Below are positions 1 to 64,000 of a DNA stretch of 64,000 nucleotides, in pieces (within the stretch, counting starts at the first letter, position 1; each line of letters begins with the position of its first letter). Source of the stretch: Eledone cirrhosa (Eukaryota); NCBI GenBank assembly GCA_964016885.1, contig OZ024742.1, forward strand, positions 230,330,001 to 230,394,000, given 5' to 3'. The translations under genes were made by a program, and so were the position numbers. The notes under the pieces were generated by a model. It had not been told where the DNA came from and searched no databases. It saw only the letters and a list, made by a program, of their open reading frames with translations.

Positions 1-292
1 CAAAATGAAAACGAAATTTCATTTCTCACTCTTAGTATGGCACTTACTTAAATGTAAGTATGCATGTATACGTACATACATATATGTATACAGACGTACA
101 GTAGCATGCACATATATATATATATATACATATATACATACATATGCATACAGGTACACATACATATATGCACGTATCAGTTTAGCGGCGCTAACGTCGC
201 TTTGTTCGTTTGTAAACAAACTGAACAGCCTGAATTTATGCCATACGGTGTTAAGGCAACCACGTCACCTTTTTGTTCAACACTGACACAGG

Positions 293-337
293 AACGATGT
301 ACTAGTTTCAAGCTTGTTAGCTATCATCAGCACCGTT
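293..337 (-). ncRNA. Minimal type I hammerhead ribozyme, short palindromic helix III (copy 1)
   Basis: Minus strand reads AACGGUG-CUGAUGA-uAGCuaacaaGCUu-GAAA-cuag-UA-CAUCGUU: 7-bp helix I, intact core, ACUAGU palindrome, predicted GUA cleavage. Confidence 0.85.
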
Positions 338-758
338 TACCCATCTGCCAGATAGTTGAACGTTCGAAAGTATATACTTTCCTTATGAAAATTAACGGCT
401 GAGCAGCCTAATTTGCATATTGAGTGAGTTAAATCGGTCAGGCATACCGAAAACGATAAATTGAAACAAAATGAAAACGAAATTTCATTTCTCACTCTTA
501 GTATGGCACTTACTTAAATGTAAGTATGCATGTATACGTACATACATATATGTATACAGACGTACAGTAGCATGCACATATATATATATATATACATATA
601 TACATACATATGCATACAGGTACACATACATATATGCACGTATCAGTTTAGCGGCGCTAACGTCGCTTTGTTCGTTTGTAAACAAACTGAACAGCCTGAA
701 TTTATGCCATACGGTGTTAAGGCAACCACGTCACCTTTTTGTTCAACACTGACACAGG

Positions 759-803
759 AACGATGTACTAGTTTCAAGCTTGTTAGCTATCATCAGCACC
801 GTT
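759..803 (-). ncRNA. Minimal type I hammerhead ribozyme (copy 2)
   Basis: Same sequence as 293-337, shifted by 466 bp. Confidence 0.85.
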
Positions 804-1224
804 TACCCATCTGCCAGATAGTTGAACGTTCGAAAGTATATACTTTCCTTATGAAAATTAACGGCTGAGCAGCCTAATTTGCATATTGAGTGAGTTAAAT
901 CGGTCAGGCATACCGAAAACGATAAATTGAAACAAAATGAAAACGAAATTTCATTTCTCACTCTTAGTATGGCACTTACTTAAATGTAAGTATGCATGTA
1001 TACGTACATACATATATGTATACAGACGTACAGTAGCATGCACATATATATATATATATACATATATACATACATATGCATACAGGTACACATACATATA
1101 TGCACGTATCAGTTTAGCGGCGCTAACGTCGCTTTGTTCGTTTGTAAACAAACTGAACAGCCTGAATTTATGCCATACGGTGTTAAGGCAACCACGTCAC
1201 CTTTTTGTTCAACACTGACACAGG

Positions 1225-1269
1225 AACGATGTACTAGTTTCAAGCTTGTTAGCTATCATCAGCACCGTT
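1225..1269 (-). ncRNA. Minimal type I hammerhead ribozyme (copy 3)
   Basis: Same sequence as 293-337, shifted by 932 bp. Confidence 0.85.
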
Positions 1270-1726
1270 TACCCATCTGCCAGATAGTTGAACGTTCGAA
1301 AGTATATACTTTCCTTATGAAAATTAACGGCTGAGCAGCCTAATTTGCATATTGAGTGAGTTAAATCGGTCAGGCATACCGAAAACGATAAATTGAAACA
1401 AAATGAAAACGAAATTTCATTTCTCACTCTTAGTATGGCACTTACTTAAATGTAAGTATGCATGTATACGTACATACATATATGTATACAGACGTACAGT
1501 AGCATGCACATATATATATATATATACATATATACATACATATGCATACAGGTAACACATAGTTAGTATAAATTTCACATATATATCTGTAAATATATGT
1601 TTAATGTGTCAATATTAGCCAAACTGATGTGATTAACGTGTGTGTAGAAGTGTGTGGGTGGTTTTCTTGTAATTGGTTACGTTATGTGTATGTATGTATG
1701 TATATATATATATGTATGTATATATG

Positions 1727-2866: not shown

Positions 2867-2867
<1 letters not shown>

Positions 2868-2941
2868 ATATTTTATCTGATGAGGACGCAACTTTCGTCC
2901 CAGGATCATATTTGTTTTCGAAATGCGCATAATAAAATATA
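2867..2941 (+). ncRNA. Type I hammerhead motif with long imperfect helix II, in a short insert between (TA)n tracts
   Basis: UUUUAU-CUGAUGA(2877-83)-36 nt-GAAA(2920-23)-ugcgca-UA-AUAAAA; AUGCGCAU palindrome; homologue at 6435-6505. Confidence 0.7.
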
Positions 2942-6434: not shown

Positions 6435-6505
6435 TATTTTATTATGCGCATTTCAAAAACAAATATCATCATGCAATAACATTTGCGTTTTCGTCAGATA
6501 AAATA
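6435..6505 (-). ncRNA. Type I hammerhead motif with a 16-bp helix II
   Basis: UAUUUUAU-CUGACGA-aaacgcaaauguuauu(gcau)gaugauauuuguuuuu-GAAA-ugcgca-UA-AUAAAAUA; helix II has one mismatch. Confidence 0.75.
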
Positions 6506-8323: not shown

Positions 8324-8680
8324 TATTCAAAATATTAATAAATGAAGACATTCACATAATCAAAATATAAGTTTTATTATATATATTTCGAAGGTACTGT
8401 GCTGTTTTTTCAGTACGTCCTCGTCAGATAAAATACATGAATTGATGTATGACATAGCTCAAGGGTCTTGATGCTTCAATTCCAGTATTGGAATTGAAAA
8501 AACAGCACAGTACCTTCGAAATATATATAATAAAACATATATTTTGATTATGTGAATGTCTTTATTTATTAATATTTTGAATAATATTAATAACTCCAGA
8601 AAACTTCATTGTAGAGTGCTTTTAATCTATTGTAAAACTATATTCATTGAGTAATCAATGAACCATATTAATCTTTGAGT
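8322..8680. mobile_element. Fold-back insertion with one complete and one half hammerhead
   Basis: Inverted arms about 8322-8412 and 8495-8586; flanked by (TA)n. Confidence 0.75.
8372..8433 (-). ncRNA. Type I hammerhead ribozyme
   Basis: UUUUAU-CUGACGA-ggacguacug(11 nt)caguaccuuc-GAAA-uauaua-UA-AUAAAA. Confidence 0.8.
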
Positions 8681-26604: not shown

Positions 26605-26650
26605 CACTTTAATACATGAATACACTTACATCTAACTATACACATCAAAC

Positions 26651-27656
26651 ATTTCCCTTAGAATCTCGGGTCTATCTTCTAACATACAAGTATTTAAGGA
26701 ACACGCCGAGTACTACGATAACGCCCTTAGTAAAGCAGGCTACCTCAACAAAATAGAGTACATAGATGGGAACAATCAAAACACCCAAAATAAATCCCAC
26801 ATAGGTAGATATAATAACACAACACCAAACCACACTTACTACCATAGTATGCACACCAGTAAACCAACAAACAAAACTAATAGAAAGCGATGCAAAGAGT
26901 ACTTATGGTATAACCCCGAATACAATAGTTCCATTAGTACAAATTTACCAGTACTCTTCTTTAAAATAATTAAAAGACATTTTCCCACATCACACAAATA
27001 CCACAAAATCCTAAACCCTACCACTATAAGACTGTCATACTCTACAGCGTTAAACCTTGAACAACACATAAAAAAGATCAATACTAGAAGGTTAAACGAA
27101 AACACTAAGAACTTAAGTACAAAGAACACAAAAAAAAACAGTAGACAATACACTACAGAACATAAATAAACCACACCTAAGTTCGTCCGCAATACTACTC
27201 CAGAGAAAACCCAACGTACACAACTGTAACTGCACCTATCCTGACAACTGCCCCCTCGGCAATAACTGCCTGGAAAAAAATATTATTTATAAGTGTACCA
27301 TTAAATCCGGAGGCAACGAGTGGTATTACGTGGGATCAACGGCAACATCGTTTAAATCTCGATTGTATAGGCATTCTTACTCAATAAAACACCAGAGCCA
27401 AAGAAATGTAACAACTTTAGCAGAAAAAGCTTGGATGCTCAGGGATAGCGATCAAAAGTTTACCCTAAAATGGGAAAAATTAGCTAAAACCCAAAGCTTT
27501 TCCAGGAGCCAAAATTTCTGCAAATTGTGTAATCTTGAGATTTATTACATAATCACACACAAGAAGAAACTGCTGAATAACAGAATTGAACGAACATTAT
27601 TCTGCCGTCACAGAACTAAAACCCTTTTTTCCCACTACAAGCCGAATATTACATAA
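26651..27656 (+). pseudogene. PLE RT-thumb/linker plus GIY-YIG endonuclease (Naiad-like), one frameshift probably at the A-run near 27130
   Basis: [48 protein letters not shown] / CNCTYPDNCPLGNNCLEKNIIYKC..YYVGSTATSFKSRLYRH..CKLCNLE..LLN.R.E..CRH; the CxCx5C linker and CxxC before the catalytic E are Naiad features. Confidence 0.9.
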
Positions 27657-28856: not shown

Positions 28857-29154
28857 ATAAGCAAAGGGATATTTAATTTGTTGGTAATTCAACAAATATA
28901 TATATTTATAACAGATTCGAAGCACTAGACAGTTTTTCCTATAATATCAATGATATTAAAAAATGGAAACTATATTTATAAAACCATATTTATTCTATTA
29001 TATATATTTCAAGGGTACCAAAACTTTGGTACGCCCTCATCAGATAAAATACAAATTCATCTGATGAGGGCGTACCAAAGTTTTGGTACCCTTGAAATAT
29101 ATATAATAGAATAAATATAGTTTTATAAATATAGTTTCCATTTATCAATATCAT

Positions 29155-29160
<6 letters not shown>
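28857..29160. mobile_element. Fold-back insertion with two divergent hammerheads (28991-29051 minus, 29056-29112 plus)
   Basis: Both arms read CUGAUGA-gggcguaccaaaguuuugguacccuu-GAAA-uauaua-UA-auagaa; 13-bp central spacer; (TA)n flanks. Confidence 0.85.
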
Positions 29161-32298: not shown

Positions 32299-32757
32299 TC
32301 TATTCTATTCTAAGGCGGGTAAAATTCCCGAGATCCATGGACGAGTTCTCTCCAGCGGTCTCTGTCCCTCATTATCGCTGCCATGTCCTGCGTCTCCAAC
32401 AGACCAGTGTCTGTCCTTAGGGCATCAACATACGTTAACCTTGGTCTTCCTCTTCTAGTGTGTCCATGTCCGGTGTGGAAGTCGGACCTTCGTAGAGACC
32501 TGAAAATCCGCCTCTTCATTGCTGTAGTGGAGTCTGTGCTGCTGTATGGGTCTGAGACTTGGACACTGACCAAGAAACTCACTCAGATGGTGGATGGGTG
32601 CTACACGAGAATGCTGAGGATGGCTCTGAACATTAATCAGTATACACTGAGGATGAAAAACTCAGAGCTGTATGGGAGCATCCCAAAAGTCAGCTCAAAA
32701 GTGACACAGAGGAGACTGAGGTTAGCTGGACATGCTCACCGACATCCAGAGTTGACA
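32297..32757 (-). mobile_element. 5'-inverted (twin-primed) RTE LINE fragment
   Basis: Minus 32469-32310 GHTRRGRPRLTYVD..MRDRDRWRELV..* plus (GAATA)n tail; plus 32470-32757 WKSDLRRDLKIRLFIAVVESVLLYGSETWTL..RRLRLAGHAHRHPE. Confidence 0.9.
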
Positions 32758-32851
32758 TCTATATATATATATATATATACATTATGAAGAGAGAAGAAAC
32801 ATTTAGATATAATTAGTAATAAAATGTATCATACCTAAACTGCTCCTAAAT

Positions 32852-32939
32852 TCCTCGACAACGTAGTTTCGTGGCATAAACAAAAACAATATATCAAAGA
32901 TATAGAGTCCTTGCGAGGTCTGCCAACTTATCAAGAGGA
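32852..32939 (-). ncRNA. Hammerhead, U3:A8 variant (one helix III substitution)
   Basis: Reverse complement of 34168-34255 with cuacguug in helix III. Confidence 0.7.
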
Positions 32940-33442
32940 TACCTCATTTTACTAGTCTCAAGAACGCGTCTACACGACGTGAGAAAGAATCCCAAAAGGC
33001 GGAGGGGGAGATAGTCACGCGATATAACGGTCGAGAAACAGAGCTAAGCCTCTTATAACCACGAAGAAAATACCACGGAGGCGGAGGGGGTATTCATATC
33101 GAGGCCGTAGAAGAGGTAGTGAAGAAGGCGAGAAGTATGAGTAATGGAAGCTTTCCAGTTGTCCCCACACTTCAAAGATTGCTCGACCAGAGGGAGTTAT
33201 TAATATATTTAGAAACACACAGATACACGCGGACACACACATATATACATGAATGCATCCGCACCCAACTGTGAGTTAAGGGTGCCAACTTCACCGATGT
33301 TGCTCAATGAATGACTGGGACAGACCAATTCAGTTTGAACCAGACTGAACCAGTATCAGAGTTAAAAATACATTATGAAGAGAGAAGAAACATTTAGATA
33401 TAATTAGTAATAAAATGTATCATACCTAAACTGCTCCTAAAT

Positions 33443-33530
33443 TCCTCGACTACGTAGTTTCGTGGCATAAACAAAAACAATATATCAAAGATATAGAGTC
33501 CTTGCGAGGTCTGCCAACTTATCAAGAGGA
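33443..33530 (-). ncRNA. Hammerhead, U3:A8 variant
   Basis: Reverse complement of 34168-34255. Confidence 0.8.
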
Positions 33531-34167
33531 TACCTCATTTTACTAGTCTCAAGAACGCGTCTACACGACGTGAGAAAGAATCCCAAAAGGCGGAGGGGGA
33601 GATAGTCACGCGATATAACGGTCGAGAAACAGAGCTAAGCCTCTTATAACCACGTAGTCGAGGAATTTAGGAGCAGTTTAGGTATGATACATTTTATTAC
33701 TAATTATATCTAAATGTTTCTTCTCTCTTCATAATGTATTTTTAACTCTGATACTGGTTCAGTCTGGTTCAAACTGAATTGGTCTGTCCCAGTCATTCAT
33801 TGAGCAACATCGGTGAAGTTGGCACCCTTAACTCACAGTTGGGTGCGGATGCATTCATGTATATATGTGTGTGTCCGCGTGTATCTGTGTGTTTCTAAAT
33901 ATATTAATAACTCCCTCTGGTCGAGCAATCTTTGAAGTGTGGGGACAACTGGAAAGCTTCCATTACTCATACTTCTCGCCTTCTTCACTACCTCTTCTAC
34001 GGCCTCGATATGAATACCCCCTCCGCCTCCGTGGTATTTTCTTCGTGGTTATAAGAGGCTTAGCTCTGTTTCTCGACCGTTATATCGCGTGACTATCTCC
34101 CCCTCCGCCTTTTGGGATTCTTTCTCACGTCGTGTAGACGCGTTCTTGAGACTAGTAAAATGAGGTA

Positions 34168-34255
34168 TCCTCTTGATAAGTTGGCAGACCTCGCAAGGAC
34201 TCTATATCTTTGATATATTGTTTTTGTTTATGCCACGAAACTACGTAGTCGAGGA
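34168..34255 (+). ncRNA. Type I hammerhead ribozyme, U3:A8 core variant
   Basis: UCCUC-UUGAUAA(34173-79)-GuUGGCA...UGCCAC-GAAA(34237-40)-cuacguag-UC-GAGGA; ACUACGUAGU palindrome. Confidence 0.8.
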
Positions 34256-34486
34256 ATTTAGGAGCAGTTTAGGTATGATACATTTTATTACTAATTATAT
34301 CTAAATGTTTCTTCTCTCTTCATAATGTATTTTTAACTCTGATACTGGTTCAGTCTGGTTCAAACTGAATTGGTCTGTCCCAGTCATTCATTGAGCAACA
34401 TCGGTGAAGTTGGCACCCTTGACTCACAGTTGGGTGCGGATGCATTCATGTATATATGTGTGTGTCCGCGTGTATCTGTGTGTTTC

Positions 34487-34535
<49 letters not shown>

Positions 34536-59486: not shown

Positions 59487-61041
59487 ATGCCTCCCAAGAA
59501 AAGACCACGGCTTTGTCGCCAAAATAAAGCTGCTTCTGCTGCCAAACGAAGAGCTACAGATTCGTCTCTCGAGAATTTGACTCGGTTGTCACAAAATGCA
59601 ACTCGAAATGCAATTACCCAGTCAACCGCCTTTCCGGGAACATTCGCCTTTCCAGGAGCATTCGCCTTTCCGGGAATGCATTTCTAACTGCAGTTGCACG
59701 TGCAGCGCAAACTGATGAACAATATTCTCGACGACGAAGCAAAAATGCTGCCTCCACTGCTGCGCGTGCTGGTGAGGACGGAGAACAGCGTTCCAAACGA
59801 CGAGGAAGAGATGCCGCCTCAACTGCTTCGTCATGTGCTGGTGAGGACGAAGGGAGCGTCCCAGACGCCAACGTATGGACGCCGCTTCAACCGCTTCTGT
59901 GCGCGCGTCAGAGACTGCCCAAATTCGATTACACAGAATAAACGCCAATGCACTCCGCAGGAGTGCTCAACGAAGTACTCCGAGGATCAGTTGTACTCAG
60001 TGGTCTCATAAAGCTTTTCACTATGACCCTACAGTTAACTATGCACTGCTGCCAGAAGTTCAGATTGGATCCATGTCCGTCATTTGCCAATCTTGCCGGG
60101 CAAAAAATTGGCTTGGGGAGACTTCAGGGATGTGCCGCTCTGACGGCAAAGTGAAACTGCCTCCTCTACAGGAACCACCACAACCTTTGAAGTCTCTACT
60201 GACCAGTGACACAGCCGAGTCGGAACACTTCCTTCAATGTTCCAGGAGATACAACGCTGCCTTCCAAATGACCTCTTTCGGAGCTAACATCATACGGGAG
60301 GACGGCTTCATGCCTACCTTTAAAGTTCAAGGACAAATTTACTGCAAGATCTGTTCGCGCCTGCCTAGGACAGACCGAGAGCCCCAGTTCCTACAGCTAT
60401 ACTTTTTCACTGACTATTTGGACCAAGCCGAACGTCGCGCTTTAATCTCGCCTGGCACAGAGATGAAAATTCTGTTGGAACTTCAGAGAATGCTGCACGA
60501 AAACAACAACTACATTCGCAGTTTTAAATGCGCATTGGAGGCCGCTCCGGCGCCAAATTTTGCTGTTATAACGACGCTGACAGGAAACCACCAGGCACCC
60601 ACGCCGGCCATTTTAACGCTCCCACGTGCAATGAAATATCTCTGCTTCTTCATGGAGAACAGTAGAACAAGCGGGACATCATACTTCAGTGTAGGGACAA
60701 CACTCTGCAAAGGATCTCAGCGAGACGCATAGGTCCTACGATGCATTCCAATACCCCCTTCTTTACCCATTCGGTGACGACTTTGGAAATCCTTTGGAAA
60801 TCCTTTGTGCAACAGCAACAAAACTGTTTCCTGTATGCAATTCTACGCCTACCGATTCATGGTCCGTGAAGGTTGCTTTAACCACCTCCACCGTGCAAGA
60901 GTACTCTTCAATCAGCTTGCTGTAGACGCGTGCGCAAAGATGGAATCTGAAAGGCTGTGCTACATAAGGAAAAATCAAGCACGCCTTCGTTCGGACAGCT
61001 ACATTCACTTACGGGATGGAGTAACGAATGACGTCGATCCC
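59487..61041 (+). pseudogene. Helitron RepHel N-terminal region
   Basis: MPPKKRPR start; C..C.AK.W.GE..GMC..GKV.LP; RRYNAAFQMTSFGA; FKVQGQIY; PQFLQLYF; FYAYRFMVR..KMESERL.YIR.NQ.RLR; frameshifted. Confidence 0.9.
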
Positions 61042-63679
61042 CAACTTTGAGGCGCAGTTCATGAGGTGGCAGTCCTGAGTGGTCCAAGGAATTGAAGAAT
61101 TCTGTAGTTAAATCGTCAACCTCATCTTTGTCCACAAGTGTGTCCACAGATTTGTAGGTATGGAGGTTTCCAGGAATGCGTTGCAGAAGGTCCTCATTGA
61201 TTTTTGCAACAGAGATATTTTTGGGAGCTAATATGGCTCTATCGCACAGCCAACTCGTGTGTTTTGTAGTTGATGGCCATATCGTGAAAGACAGAGGCTG
61301 TGAGGTCGTCAACAGTGTCGACAATGTTGCCTACTTGCGAGACTGCCTTTTCTCCAGCTGCATCTGAAGGTGCAGTGCCGTCACCAACTGTTAAGAGGTC
61401 CTTTGAGAAGTCGGCTGCTAAGTGGTCGCCGAGCAGTTGGGCTCTCATGTTTGTTGTGAGGGTCAGAATTGTCACTTCCTGCCATAGGAGAAATGACTTA
61501 ATGCAAGCCCCCAAAGTGTCGGCCCTGGTGGCTTTTGGAACAACTGGAAGAGTTTGTCGAAAATCACCAGACAGCAGTAGAGGTACTCCTCCCATCGGCC
61601 GGTTGCATTCCCTGATGTTTCGTATTGTCATGTCTAACGCCTCAAGGGACCCTTTATGGGCCATTGTGCATTCTTCCTACACAATTAGCTGGCATCCTTT
61701 CAACACTTCTGCTTTGTCAGAATGCTTGGTGATATAGCAGGTTATTGTGTCGTCTGAAGTCGCGTTGAATGGTAGTTTAAATGCGGAATGAGCTGTCCTA
61801 CTTCCGGGCAGCAGAGTTGCGGCAATCCCAGAAGAAGCCACAGCTAGGGCGAAGCCACAGCCAGGGCTGTCGCACTTTGGCGAGGAGGAATTTAGTGACG
61901 AATGTGTTACCAGTTCCTCTTGGGATGTCCAAAAAGAAGATACCTCCTGTGCGTTGATGAATGGAAGTGCAAACTGTGTCATACGCCCGCCGTTGATCCT
62001 GCAACAATATCGGCTCGTTTTCGTTGATGAACAGTTCGAGGGAGTCGACGTCGTAGGCAGTTTCCTGAATTATGCCCGTCGGAAGTTTGTCCGAGCCCGT
62101 TCGCTGAACTTTTGGCAGTCCATAGAATGGAACGTCATTTCCACCGGCAGTTAGGATTTTGTCCTCAATGTCAACGAGAGCTTTGTTGAAGAATTCGTCG
62201 CTGAGTCGTACGTCGGAATGAGGGAGTAGCAGTTGTCCTTGGTGTATGTAGTCATCGGAAAGGTCCTCTTTGTATTTCTCCCATAAGGATATAGGGTCGC
62301 TTAGTTCGCCTGTCTGCAGTAGCACCGCAAAGTGTTGCCGAAGACTTCGCGCTGAGCGTATTGTAGCTGCCTCCGCCAACGTGGTATCCCGCTGAGTGCC
62401 ATCTTCCAGTAGACGCTGTCTAAGGCAGGCTGCGCGGAATGAAGTGCAAACCTCTCCGTTGATTGTTTTCAGATCGTCGAAAGATGTCGGTCCTACCACC
62501 TCATGTAGTAGAAGGCGGAGATAAAAGCATTCCTGTTGGTTAGGATGAATGGTGTACACTCTCCCAAGGGTAGTGAGATTTTAATGTCTGGATGTCCCTC
62601 GACGAATTGTCCTTTCACCCTTCGTAACAAAATTCTGTTGCCTGTGTTCCAAGTGTAGTATGATGGCACCTGAGAAGAAGAGGGTCTTGGCGAAGGGATC
62701 GTTTCGGCATAACTTAAAAAATGCCGTAAGTGTGGTGTCCTAGGGTTCCTCTGCTATCTCAGCAGCGGTGGAGGCGGTGAAGTAGACTCTTTAACCATTT
62801 TCAAGGTGGACCGCCAACTGTTTGATTGGAAAAATCGCCAGATGTATCGGCGGACCTGGTATCGACTTACTTCGTCTCGGTTGTTCTCCATTGTAAGACC
62901 AAAGGACACAGCATCGGACCCCTTATTGGTGTACTTGCAGACGTACTTTATTGATTTGACGGAGTGGCAGTATTCAACGTTAATGCGGGTGTCAAACATT
63001 TTAAGCAGAAGTGGGCAGTAGGGTACAATCCACCGGTTGCCGACGTGGTGATGTGGGGTTTTCGCAACAATTCCTCCCTCTGCTGGCTCCTTGCGGCGGT
63101 ATAATGGGTAACCGTCGCCACCTGTCTGAGTTCTCGGAGGAATGGCCTTGGATACCTCTTGGTGCACCTTCTTTCTTTAATACATGGCGAATTCATGTTG
63201 AAACCGTTTCCGTGTGGTCGTGAACCATGTGAGCAGTGACGATGTTGTGGAGTTCTCTGTCCAATTTCGGGTCGGGTATTTCTGCTGAAATAATGCTGTC
63301 TGTCAATGCTGGTTGCGTTGATGTTCGTTATTAGCCAAATGAGTAGGTGGGCGTGTGACAGGCCTCTCTTTTTCCACTCAACGGTGTATACGTAGCACCT
63401 AACAGGTCCAAAGGCCTTACCTGATTGTATGAGTTCAATAAGTTTTGTCAATTTCAAGTGGAAGACTCGTGCCTTAAGGTCGTGTCTGTCTGACGCCCTT
63501 TGTCCGGGGAATAATTCCGCGGTAATTTCAGTCCACATAGGGTTGCAAGTTAAAGTGATAAAGACATCTGGTCTGCGGTAGAGACACACGTAAGTCATAG
63601 CATCCTGTGTGCGTTCACTCAAGTATCGGGGACTCCCAATAAACGTCGATGGAAGGATACAATGTTTTCCAAGTTTCTC
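61042..63679 (-). pseudogene. Inverted Helitron Rep and helicase segment
   Basis: ILPSTFIGSPRY; PDVFITLTCNP.W; VEWKKRGLSHAHLLIW (HUH); FYLRLLL; FFLDIPRGTGNT (decayed Walker A); GDFRQTLPV; LPPHELRLKVG. Confidence 0.93.
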
Positions 63680-64000
63680 TGCAATGGAATACGGTTAGTG
63701 GTAAGAAACCTCCTGCGGCATGTAATTGAAGCTACAATTCGCACGAACTGCGGCGCTGGAGAAAACGTCTTTATACCCAGAATACCATTAACTCCATCAG
63801 GTACGGAATGCCCCTGTACTTCAATCCCCGTTAAACTTTGCTTCGCGATGTCAATCAACAAATCCCAAGGCCAAACGCTAACAACGGCAGGCCTCTATTT
63901 AGGCCAGCCGTGCTTCTCACACGGCCAATTATACGTCGCATGCTCAAGAGTCGGATGCAAGCAGAATTTATTCATACTTGCGCCCAAAGACAGAACAAAA
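63677..64000 (+). pseudogene. Helitron PIF1 helicase C-terminus
   Basis: LCNGIRLVV..VIEATI..GENVFIPRIPL..FAMSINKSQGQTL..FSHGQLYVACSRVG. Confidence 0.92.

What the first reader, a model, noticed from the sequence alone, without database searches (positions are those of the whole stretch)
32779..34490. 591-bp unit integrated as about 1.5 plus 1.4 copies head-to-head
Both halves are longer than one unit and start or end at arbitrary phases, as expected from rolling reverse transcription of a circular or multimeric RNA. The plus half begins in the helix III palindrome about 8 nt before the cleavage site through an ACG microhomology (33652-54). Copies differ at very few sites and there is no credible ORF.
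Basis: partly seen in the sequence, partly recalled or inferred. Interest (0 to 1): 0.75.

Follow-up and report, generated by a model that had tools for sequence, protein, structure and literature searches.

The report
RNA circle copied from two starts
This is one of thousands of young insertions of a 591-base non-coding repeat with a predicted self-cutting RNA motif; its back-to-back halves end at two different fixed sites and carry the same sequence variants, likely because a Penelope-type transposon enzyme copied one RNA circle into both DNA strands at once.

Summary
In detail: 1.49 and 1.43 copies of a 591-nt unit, head-to-head through an ACG overlap, inside (TA)n, no coding ORF. It is a young non-LTR-retrozyme-type family with a type I hammerhead motif (U3-A8 core) and 5,064 exact core copies genome-wide. 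One claim fails: only the inner 5' ends are arbitrary. The outer 3' ends sit at two fixed sites, phase 80 (A) and 245 (B). In 120 regions, 65 of 70 head-to-head pairs were A+B, none A+A or B+B. Both arms of a locus share variants (119 of 120); two haplotypes tested occur at no other locus. Locus-fixed changes lean A>G on the ribozyme strand (27 vs 14 T>C), ADAR-like, but the private subset did not replicate. Best reading: a Penelope-like enzyme primes one sense, likely circular, RNA at two sites, one per DNA strand. RNA, cleavage, the driver element and read support for this junction are not shown. The class and Penelope tail/inversion are published; I did not find strict pairing for retrozymes in print. 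This scan noted the same architecture in other genomes.

The parts
32777..33654 (-). Left arm, 878 nt = 1.49 units; 5' end (inner) at unit phase about 385, 3' end (outer) at fixed site A, phase 80, running into (TA)n
33652..34495 (+). Right arm, 844 nt = 1.43 units; 5' end (inner) at phase 584, 3' end (outer) at fixed site B, phase 245, running into (TA)n
33652..33654 (.). Head-to-head junction of the two 5' ends, 3-nt exact microhomology ACG
33660..34250 (+). One complete 591-nt unit, cleavage site to cleavage site (predicted monomer/circle); folds better than all 100 shuffles, z -5.5
32857..33447 (-). Complete 591-nt unit on the minus strand
34168..34255 (+). Complete type I hammerhead motif: 5-bp helix I, U3-A8 core variant (34173-34179), helix II with a long inner hairpin, GAAA (34237-34240), palindromic helix III, predicted GUC cleavage after 34250
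   Evidence: own descriptor; alignment with sister family; no Rfam hammerhead hit
33443..33530 (-). Complete hammerhead motif, minus strand
32852..32939 (-). Hammerhead motif, minus strand, with one substitution in helix III at 32860
32760..32779 (.). Left (TA)10 target, overlapping the last bases of the site A end
34490..34532 (.). Right (TA)21 target, overlapping the last bases of the site B end
33228..33228 (-). Rare A>G variant at unit phase 220, present in all three copies of this locus that cover it (also 33879 and 34470); 8 of 288 sampled copies, 122 exact matches genome-wide

Best explanation
The locus is one insertion of a young, non-coding 591-nt repeat with a hammerhead motif (a non-LTR retrozyme), likely written into a (TA)n microsatellite by a Penelope-like RT/GIY-YIG enzyme supplied in trans, which would prime one sense-strand, probably circular RNA at two fixed sites, one from each nicked DNA strand. 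Steps: (1) inferred: tandem loci are transcribed, the hammerhead cuts (likely as a dimer through its palindromic helix III) and monomers are ligated to circles. (2) Shown in sequence: every regular insertion has its 3' ends at site A (phase 80) or B (phase 245), each a short AU-alternating motif able to pair with (TA)n; two-armed insertions use one of each. (3) Inferred: the two target 3' ends anneal at A and B and both are extended round the template for 0.1-7.6 laps. (4) Shown: the two variable 5' ends meet head-to-head, mostly with 1-10 nt overlap; inferred end joining. (5) Shown: both arms and all laps carry one haplotype; inferred: one template molecule, sometimes bearing ADAR edits. My odds per step: retrozyme-type element 0.93; PLE machinery 0.85; one template for both arms 0.8; monomer circle rather than linear multimer as the usual template 0.7; A>G excess due to ADAR 0.65.
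For: Pairing: 65 of 70 adjacent minus-then-plus arm pairs are A+B, 0 A+A, 0 B+B, 5 other (one duplicated insertion, L078, is counted twice, so 64 independent; 44 of them come from the two samples not picked on an A end). Among the 100 listed A ends and 100 listed B ends no two of a kind face each other within 10 kb (read by eye). Genome-wide 2,470 exact A junctions and 982 exact B junctions with (TA)n. Priming by annealing: G77 of site A reads A in 17 of 101 terminal copies and 0 of 248 internal copies. One template: divergence 0.30% within an arm, 0.34% between arms, 1.63% between loci in the unbiased sample; variants present in two or more copies and covered on both arms are on both arms in 119 of 120 cases; variants covered three or more times in a locus are in one copy (85), all copies (73) or some (10); the L099 haplotype matches 7 places, all in that one insertion, 4 on one arm and 3 on the other, and the L097 haplotype 2 places in its one insertion. 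Strand polarity: distinct locus-fixed variants A>G 27 vs T>C 14, p 0.0006 against base composition; private singletons 5 vs 13. Hammerhead: descriptor match on one strand only; core positions vary less (13 of 7,680 vs 1,166 of 137,890 calls, gaps included, copies not independent); core and helix III kept in a sister family 74% identical, whose inner helix II hairpin differs by paired changes, read by eye. PLE context: coding RT + GIY-YIG elements in this genome also end at two sites in (TA)n with head-to-head arms. Literature: a purified PLE cleaves and extends both strands, starts at two internal RNA sites that define the tail, and is predicted to be a dimer (PMC11167929); retrozyme circRNAs and a PLE-driven tandem cDNA model (PMC7229834).
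Against: No RNA evidence: expression, cleavage and circularity are untested. The driver PLE is not identified and the unit shows no sequence similarity to the PLE ends examined. The A>G excess replicated for all fixed variants in 40 fresh loci (15 vs 8, p 0.01) but not for the private ones (1 A>G vs 2 T>C of 10); the pooled private count (9 vs 3, p 0.014) leans on two loci; 5'-G depletion is only p 0.07 and edited sites are not more paired than other A (p 0.36). Polarity is taken from the majority base. Five loci carry variants in only some copies; in L051 both arms share a position-specific pair of variant copies, which fits a multimeric template. In the predicted monomer fold the hammerhead helices I and III are not formed. 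The coding PLE checked pairs its ends less strictly (4 A+B, 2 B+B, 1 other). In vitro the published PLE used uncut RNA and started at sites not homologous to the target, unlike the annealing inferred here.
Confidence: 0.72

Rival explanations
1. Same PLE two-site priming, but the template is a linear, uncut multimeric transcript of a tandem source locus; uniform haplotypes are inherited from the source array.
For: L051 arms share position-specific variants; 10 of 168 well-covered variants are in only some copies. Hammerhead cleavage was not needed for PLE insertion in vitro (PMC11167929). U3-A8 and other minimal PLE hammerheads are reported as weak cutters or untested (PMC4209133 passages).
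Against: Two private multi-variant haplotypes have no donor elsewhere in the assembly; independent editing or mutation along a multimer would give mixed units, yet 73 of 83 multi-copy variants are in all copies. Some earlier step must still have multiplied a monomer.
Confidence: 0.17
2. The unit is the pLTR of a coding Penelope-like element and these are truncated end fragments.
For: Two fixed 3' ends, inverted arm, (TA)n target and type I hammerhead are all PLE traits (PMC8557442 passages). One locus (L190) has a PLE RT ORF joined to the unit in the same orientation.
Against: Arms are pure tandem units up to 7.6 laps. Of 52 free 5' ends only L190 runs into a PLE ORF at the junction, and it does so mid-ORF before the endonuclease through a 5-nt microhomology; the other 29 fetched copies of that PLE show no hit to the unit and, where the stretch reaches it, end in their own GIY-YIG and 3' region. 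No PLE protein similarity in the unit. Only 120 of several thousand loci were examined.
Confidence: 0.04
3. DNA-level or fold-back origin: inverted arms arise by self-priming on an antisense template (proposed for Penelope in PMC3846280) or by palindrome formation, and tandems by unequal crossover after insertion.
For: Head-to-head palindromic junctions in PLEs were read as antisense self-priming; local amplification by unequal crossover was proposed for retrozymes (bioRxiv 10.64898/2026.07.22.740005). 7 of 65 pairs have 5' phases within 15 nt (3.5 expected, p 0.057).
Against: 58 of 65 junctions are not near-symmetric; fold-back would give two arms ending alike, not A with B; post-insertion singletons are not homogenised; the strand bias is A>G on the hammerhead strand, not T>C.
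Confidence: 0.05
4. Assembly artefact (inverted chimera in a repeat).
For: No read-level confirmation of this junction (one search had contigs only).
Against: The same ordered geometry recurs at 64 independent loci with different inner breakpoints and locus-specific haplotypes.
Confidence: 0.02

Closest known systems
Metazoan non-LTR retrozymes (Cervera and de la Pena 2020, PMC7229834: abstract, sections 13 and 17, passages read; Li, Clavereau and Pollet 2026, bioRxiv 10.64898/2026.07.22.740005: parts 1-3 of 5 read)
   Same: Non-coding tandem units, one type I hammerhead per unit, GC under 50%, thousands of copies, PLEs in the same genome.
   Different: 591 nt is above the 170-400 nt of the 2020 paper but inside the 51-972 bp range of the 2026 survey. 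U3-A8 core with a long helix II insert. The texts I read describe no fixed paired 3' ends, head-to-head arms or editing marks ('inverted' occurs 0 times in the 2020 main text), and leave the mobilisation mechanism open. circRNA not shown here.
Endonuclease-bearing Penelope-like elements: inverted pLTR and 'tail' (PMC8557442 passages; PMC3846280 passages and Discussion; PMC11167929 parts 1-2 of 4)
   Same: Two alternative 3' ends, inverted 5'-truncated arm, (TA)n target, type I hammerhead upstream of the ends.
   Different: No ORF; tail 165 nt instead of 30-40; arms are multi-lap tandems of one unit; strict one-A-one-B pairing; signs of primer annealing at the target, whereas the anole PLE started at non-homologous sites in vitro.
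U3-A8 minimal hammerhead of Schistosoma Cercyon PLEs (PMC4209133 passages)
   Same: U3-A8 in place of C3-G8, bulged base at the start of helix II, palindromic helix III suited to dimer cleavage.
   Different: Here highly conserved, in a tandem non-coding unit, with a 40-nt hairpin inside loop II.
LINE-1 twin priming (recalled, not checked in a paper here)
   Same: Both target strands prime on one RNA; 5' ends joined head-to-head by microhomology.
   Different: In L1 the second site is variable and the arms cover different parts of a linear RNA; here both sites are fixed and both arms can lap the unit.

Membership tests
Non-LTR retrozyme | Tandem repeats of a short non-coding unit | tested here: met
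Non-LTR retrozyme | Type I hammerhead motif in each unit | tested here: met
   (own descriptor, U3-A8 variant); Rfam models did not hit
Non-LTR retrozyme | No LTR pair around a distinct internal region; dispersed high copy number | tested here: met
   arms are pure unit repeats; 5,064 core matches. PBS/PPT not searched
Non-LTR retrozyme | Self-cleavage of the RNA | not testable with these tools
   needs in vitro transcription
Non-LTR retrozyme | Expressed as linear and circular monomer RNA | tested here: inconclusive
   no RNA holder listed; closed unit-length contigs in two runs of unknown kind fit tandem DNA equally
Autonomous Penelope-like element (unit as pLTR) | RT + GIY-YIG ORF attached to the repeat | tested here: not met
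   120 regions: none complete; one mid-ORF chimera, L190
Penelope-type insertion (works like) | Two alternative 3' ends (tail) | tested here: met
   phases 80 and 245
Penelope-type insertion (works like) | Inverted 5'-truncated arm, microsatellite target | tested here: met
Penelope-type insertion (works like) | Mobilised by a specific PLE protein | tested here: inconclusive
   several PLE families present; no shared end sequence found
Plant-type LTR retrozyme | Type III hammerheads in two LTRs, 4-bp TSD | tested here: not met
   type I motif, tandem units, (TA)n target

The most novel reading that the evidence does not exclude
These insertions are a genomic record of the full Penelope integration step: a dimeric enzyme grips one ADAR-edited, sense-strand RNA circle at two fixed sites, primes each from one DNA strand and rolls both cDNAs round the circle before joining their 5' ends. 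That would explain the tail and the head-to-head inversion together, settle template polarity against the antisense self-priming model, and give the first direct genomic evidence of rolling-circle reverse transcription of an animal retrozyme.
Probability: 0.45. Interest if true: 0.8.

Novelty: new variant of a known kind. Interest (0 to 1): 0.58.

Why it matters
How Penelope-like elements integrate (why a tail, why an inverted arm, which strand is the template) and how animal retrozymes move are stated as open in the papers read (PMC8557442, PMC3846280, PMC11167929, the 2026 preprint). A 591-nt ORF-free substrate with thousands of near-identical insertions, two mapped priming sites used strictly one per arm, and natural single-molecule marks makes these questions testable by plain genome counting and by one in vitro assay. 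It also suggests that RNA editing marks can be fixed in the germline through this route. The element class itself is known, and the scan has seen this architecture in other genomes, so the value is mechanistic, not a new kind of element.

Tried and rejected
Rfam: no hit at gathering score in the window, and no hammerhead family among 35 weak matches; the MIR8562 match only reflects the DNA palindrome. No RNA holder listed. Contigs of 621 nt (X1) and 620 nt (X6), i.e. unit plus 30, look closed, but the run kind is unknown and tandem DNA gives the same, so they are not used. No listed contig bridges the 33652-54 junction; a hole proves nothing. 5' truncation hot spots (phases 172-182, 1-20, 390-410) seen by eye are not significant after scanning (P 0.09). 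Symmetric fold-back junctions are not clearly enriched (p 0.057). Edited positions are not more base-paired than other A in the circular fold (p 0.36); some helix-pair indices in that script were off, so its helix II probabilities are not used. Search for the driver: low-stringency BLAST of the unit against masked flanks found only a sister non-coding family (the middle's output was cut); two coding PLE families fetched have unrelated ends; other PLE families seen in flanks were only inspected at single copies. A Pfam accession recalled for a PLE domain was not in the library. Target-site duplication cannot be read in (TA)n. Rows dropped before variant counts: phases 74-86 and 196-250, the first 10 nt of each arm, the duplicate copy in L078, the decayed last copy of L065, and arms under 93% identity in the third sample.

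Full report
Observation. The region is as described. With phase 1 set at the base after the predicted cleavage site (unit = 33660-34250), the left arm reads on the minus strand from phase about 385 to phase 80 (32777-33654, 1.49 units) and the right arm on the plus strand from phase 584 to 245 (33652-34495, 1.43 units). They overlap by ACG at 33652-54, differ internally at two sites, and lie between (TA)10 and (TA)21. The longest stop-free frame is 86 aa. The genome is a 3.0-Gb, microsatellite-rich animal assembly.

Ribozyme. Rfam finds no hammerhead, but my descriptor finds one type I motif per unit, on one strand only: helix I of 5 bp, a core with U3-A8 in place of C3-G8, helix II with a long inner hairpin, GAAA, a palindromic helix III and a GUC site. 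The U3-A8 covariation and dimer-type palindromic helix III are described for PLE hammerheads (PMC4209133, passages). A sister family about 74% identical keeps the core and helix III and changes the inner hairpin in paired fashion, by eye. The unit folds well (z -5.5), with the hammerhead's helix I sequestered in the monomer prediction. Activity is untested.

Family. A 30-nt core pattern has 5,064 exact matches, control 0. I mapped 120 regions: 40 best matches including the window, the first 40 core-bearing regions on contig 1 in list order, and 40 picked on having an A end. Arms are pure tandem units, 0.1 to 7.6 laps; 107 of 187 regular arms exceed one unit and 174 cross the cleavage site. Of 194 arms, 187 end at site A (78-86) or B (243-251). 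Of 70 adjacent minus-then-plus pairs, 65 are A+B (64 independent), none A+A or B+B; of the other five, L094 and L176 are three-piece insertions whose outer ends are A and B, and L065, L087, L107 have an end elsewhere. For the 44 independent pairs not picked on an A end, chance at even odds is about 2^-44 (arithmetic). Single-arm insertions are common (20 of 40 in the unbiased sample, 11 A and 9 B), and 41 of 52 free 5' ends abut TA repeats. Of 69 inner junctions 44 overlap by 1-10 nt by BLAST ends, 10 are blunt and 15 have extra bases.

Priming. Both sites end in an AU-alternating hexamer just 3' of a predicted hairpin. The G at phase 77 is A in 17 of 101 terminal copies and in 0 of 248 internal copies, including internal copies of the same loci. 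The simplest reading is that target (TA)n paired across the motif and replaced it, which marks the outer ends as primer ends; slippage at the boundary after insertion is an alternative.

One template. In the unbiased sample copies differ by 0.30% within an arm, 0.34% between arms and 1.63% between loci. Variants are mostly in one copy (85, read as later mutation) or in all copies of a locus (73), seldom in some (10, five loci). Shared variants lie on both arms in 119 of 120 cases. The L099 haplotype occurs at 7 places, all in that insertion and on both arms; the L097 haplotype at 2 places in its insertion; a donor could be missing from a haploid assembly. The window's own rare variant, A220G, is in all three copies that cover it and in 122 places genome-wide. 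L051 is the clear exception: both arms share an ordered pair of variant copies, which fits a multimeric template.

Strand. Distinct locus-fixed variants are A>G 27 and T>C 14 on the hammerhead strand (p 0.0006); private singletons are 5 and 13. The first 80 regions gave 23 vs 8 and, for private ones, 11 vs 3. The 40 fresh regions gave 15 vs 8 (p 0.01) but only 1 vs 2 among 10 private variants, so that part did not replicate. Several A>G sites recur on different haplotype backgrounds. 5'-G depletion, an ADAR trait that I recall, is weak (p 0.07). I rate ADAR editing of a sense template as likely, not shown; transcription-linked mutation or polymerase error are alternatives.

Driver. Coding PLEs with RT and GIY-YIG are abundant. 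One family has two ends about 60 nt apart in (TA)n and head-to-head pairs, 4 A+B, 2 B+B, 1 other among 30 loci. None examined shares end sequence with the unit. In L190 a PLE ORF is joined mid-gene to the unit through a 5-nt microhomology inside one (TA)n-bounded stretch; a template switch would hint at the driver, but a deletion between neighbours explains it too, and it is 1 of 120 regions.

Mechanism and literature. A purified anole PLE cuts and extends both strands, starts at two internal RNA sites that define the genomic tail, and is predicted to be a dimer (PMC11167929, parts 1-2 of 4 read). Tail, inverted arm and (TA)n bias are general PLE traits (PMC8557442, passages), while head-to-head arms were attributed to antisense self-priming with polarity left open (PMC3846280, passages and Discussion). 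Retrozymes are known circRNAs proposed to be copied by PLEs into tandem cDNA (PMC7229834, abstract and sections 13, 17), and a 2026 preprint links them to pLTRs but leaves the mechanism open (parts 1-3 of 5). Putting these together with the data gives the model in Best explanation. I did not find strict A/B pairing or editing marks for retrozymes in the paper searches (listings seen; only the six papers named were opened, no supplements).

Earlier notes. After forming this reading I found that the scan had noted two-site head-to-head retrozymes in other genomes and ADAR-like marks in both arms of a Penelope copy. They agree, are unchecked by me, and are not used as evidence.

Verdict. Real feature; new family of a known class, with an insertion rule and single-template marks that make the Penelope integration step testable. 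Novelty: new variant of a known kind. Interest 0.58.

Noticed in passing
window 32306-32760: RTE-type LINE 3' fragment directly left of the insertion, itself partly inverted (about 32306-32469 minus, 32471-32760 plus) with a short pentamer tail; very abundant in run X2. RTE label recalled from the translated motif.
   Followed up: no
L190:318-3550 (G000:C1:70686100-70692600): Chimera of a PLE RT ORF and 1.85 retrozyme units in the same orientation, 5-nt microhomology, TA at both outer ends; possible template switch that could name the driver.
   Followed up: partly
L110-L139: Older sister retrozyme family, about 74% identical, copies about 95% alike, same U3-A8 hammerhead and the same two end sites.
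   Followed up: partly
L075:5900-9001: Unrelated 310-nt tandem repeat with a canonical type I hammerhead, also head-to-head (3 minus, at least 7 plus copies) starting in (TA)n.
   Followed up: no
window 2867-2941, 6435-6505, 8372-8433, 28991-29051: Four further type I hammerhead motifs with long helix II loops; the last lies in the 105-nt inverted repeat 28944-29160.
   Followed up: no
window 26636-27653 (+): Two open frames resembling the PLE-like ORFs seen near other loci, by eye; no Pfam hit.
   Followed up: partly
window 59845-63694: GC-rich stretch with open frames whose motifs look like a Helitron Rep/helicase (recalled, not tested).
   Followed up: no
window 1-1561: 466-bp tandem repeat, 3.3 copies at 99% identity.
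   Followed up: no
L051 (G000:C12:14089600-14099500): Largest insertion seen, 6.0 plus 7.6 units; both arms share an ordered pair of variant copies, pointing to a multimeric template or template switching.
   Followed up: partly
L099:5205-5265: Junction holds about 59 nt made of short repeated copies of a unit motif, suggesting stuttering at the join.
   Followed up: no
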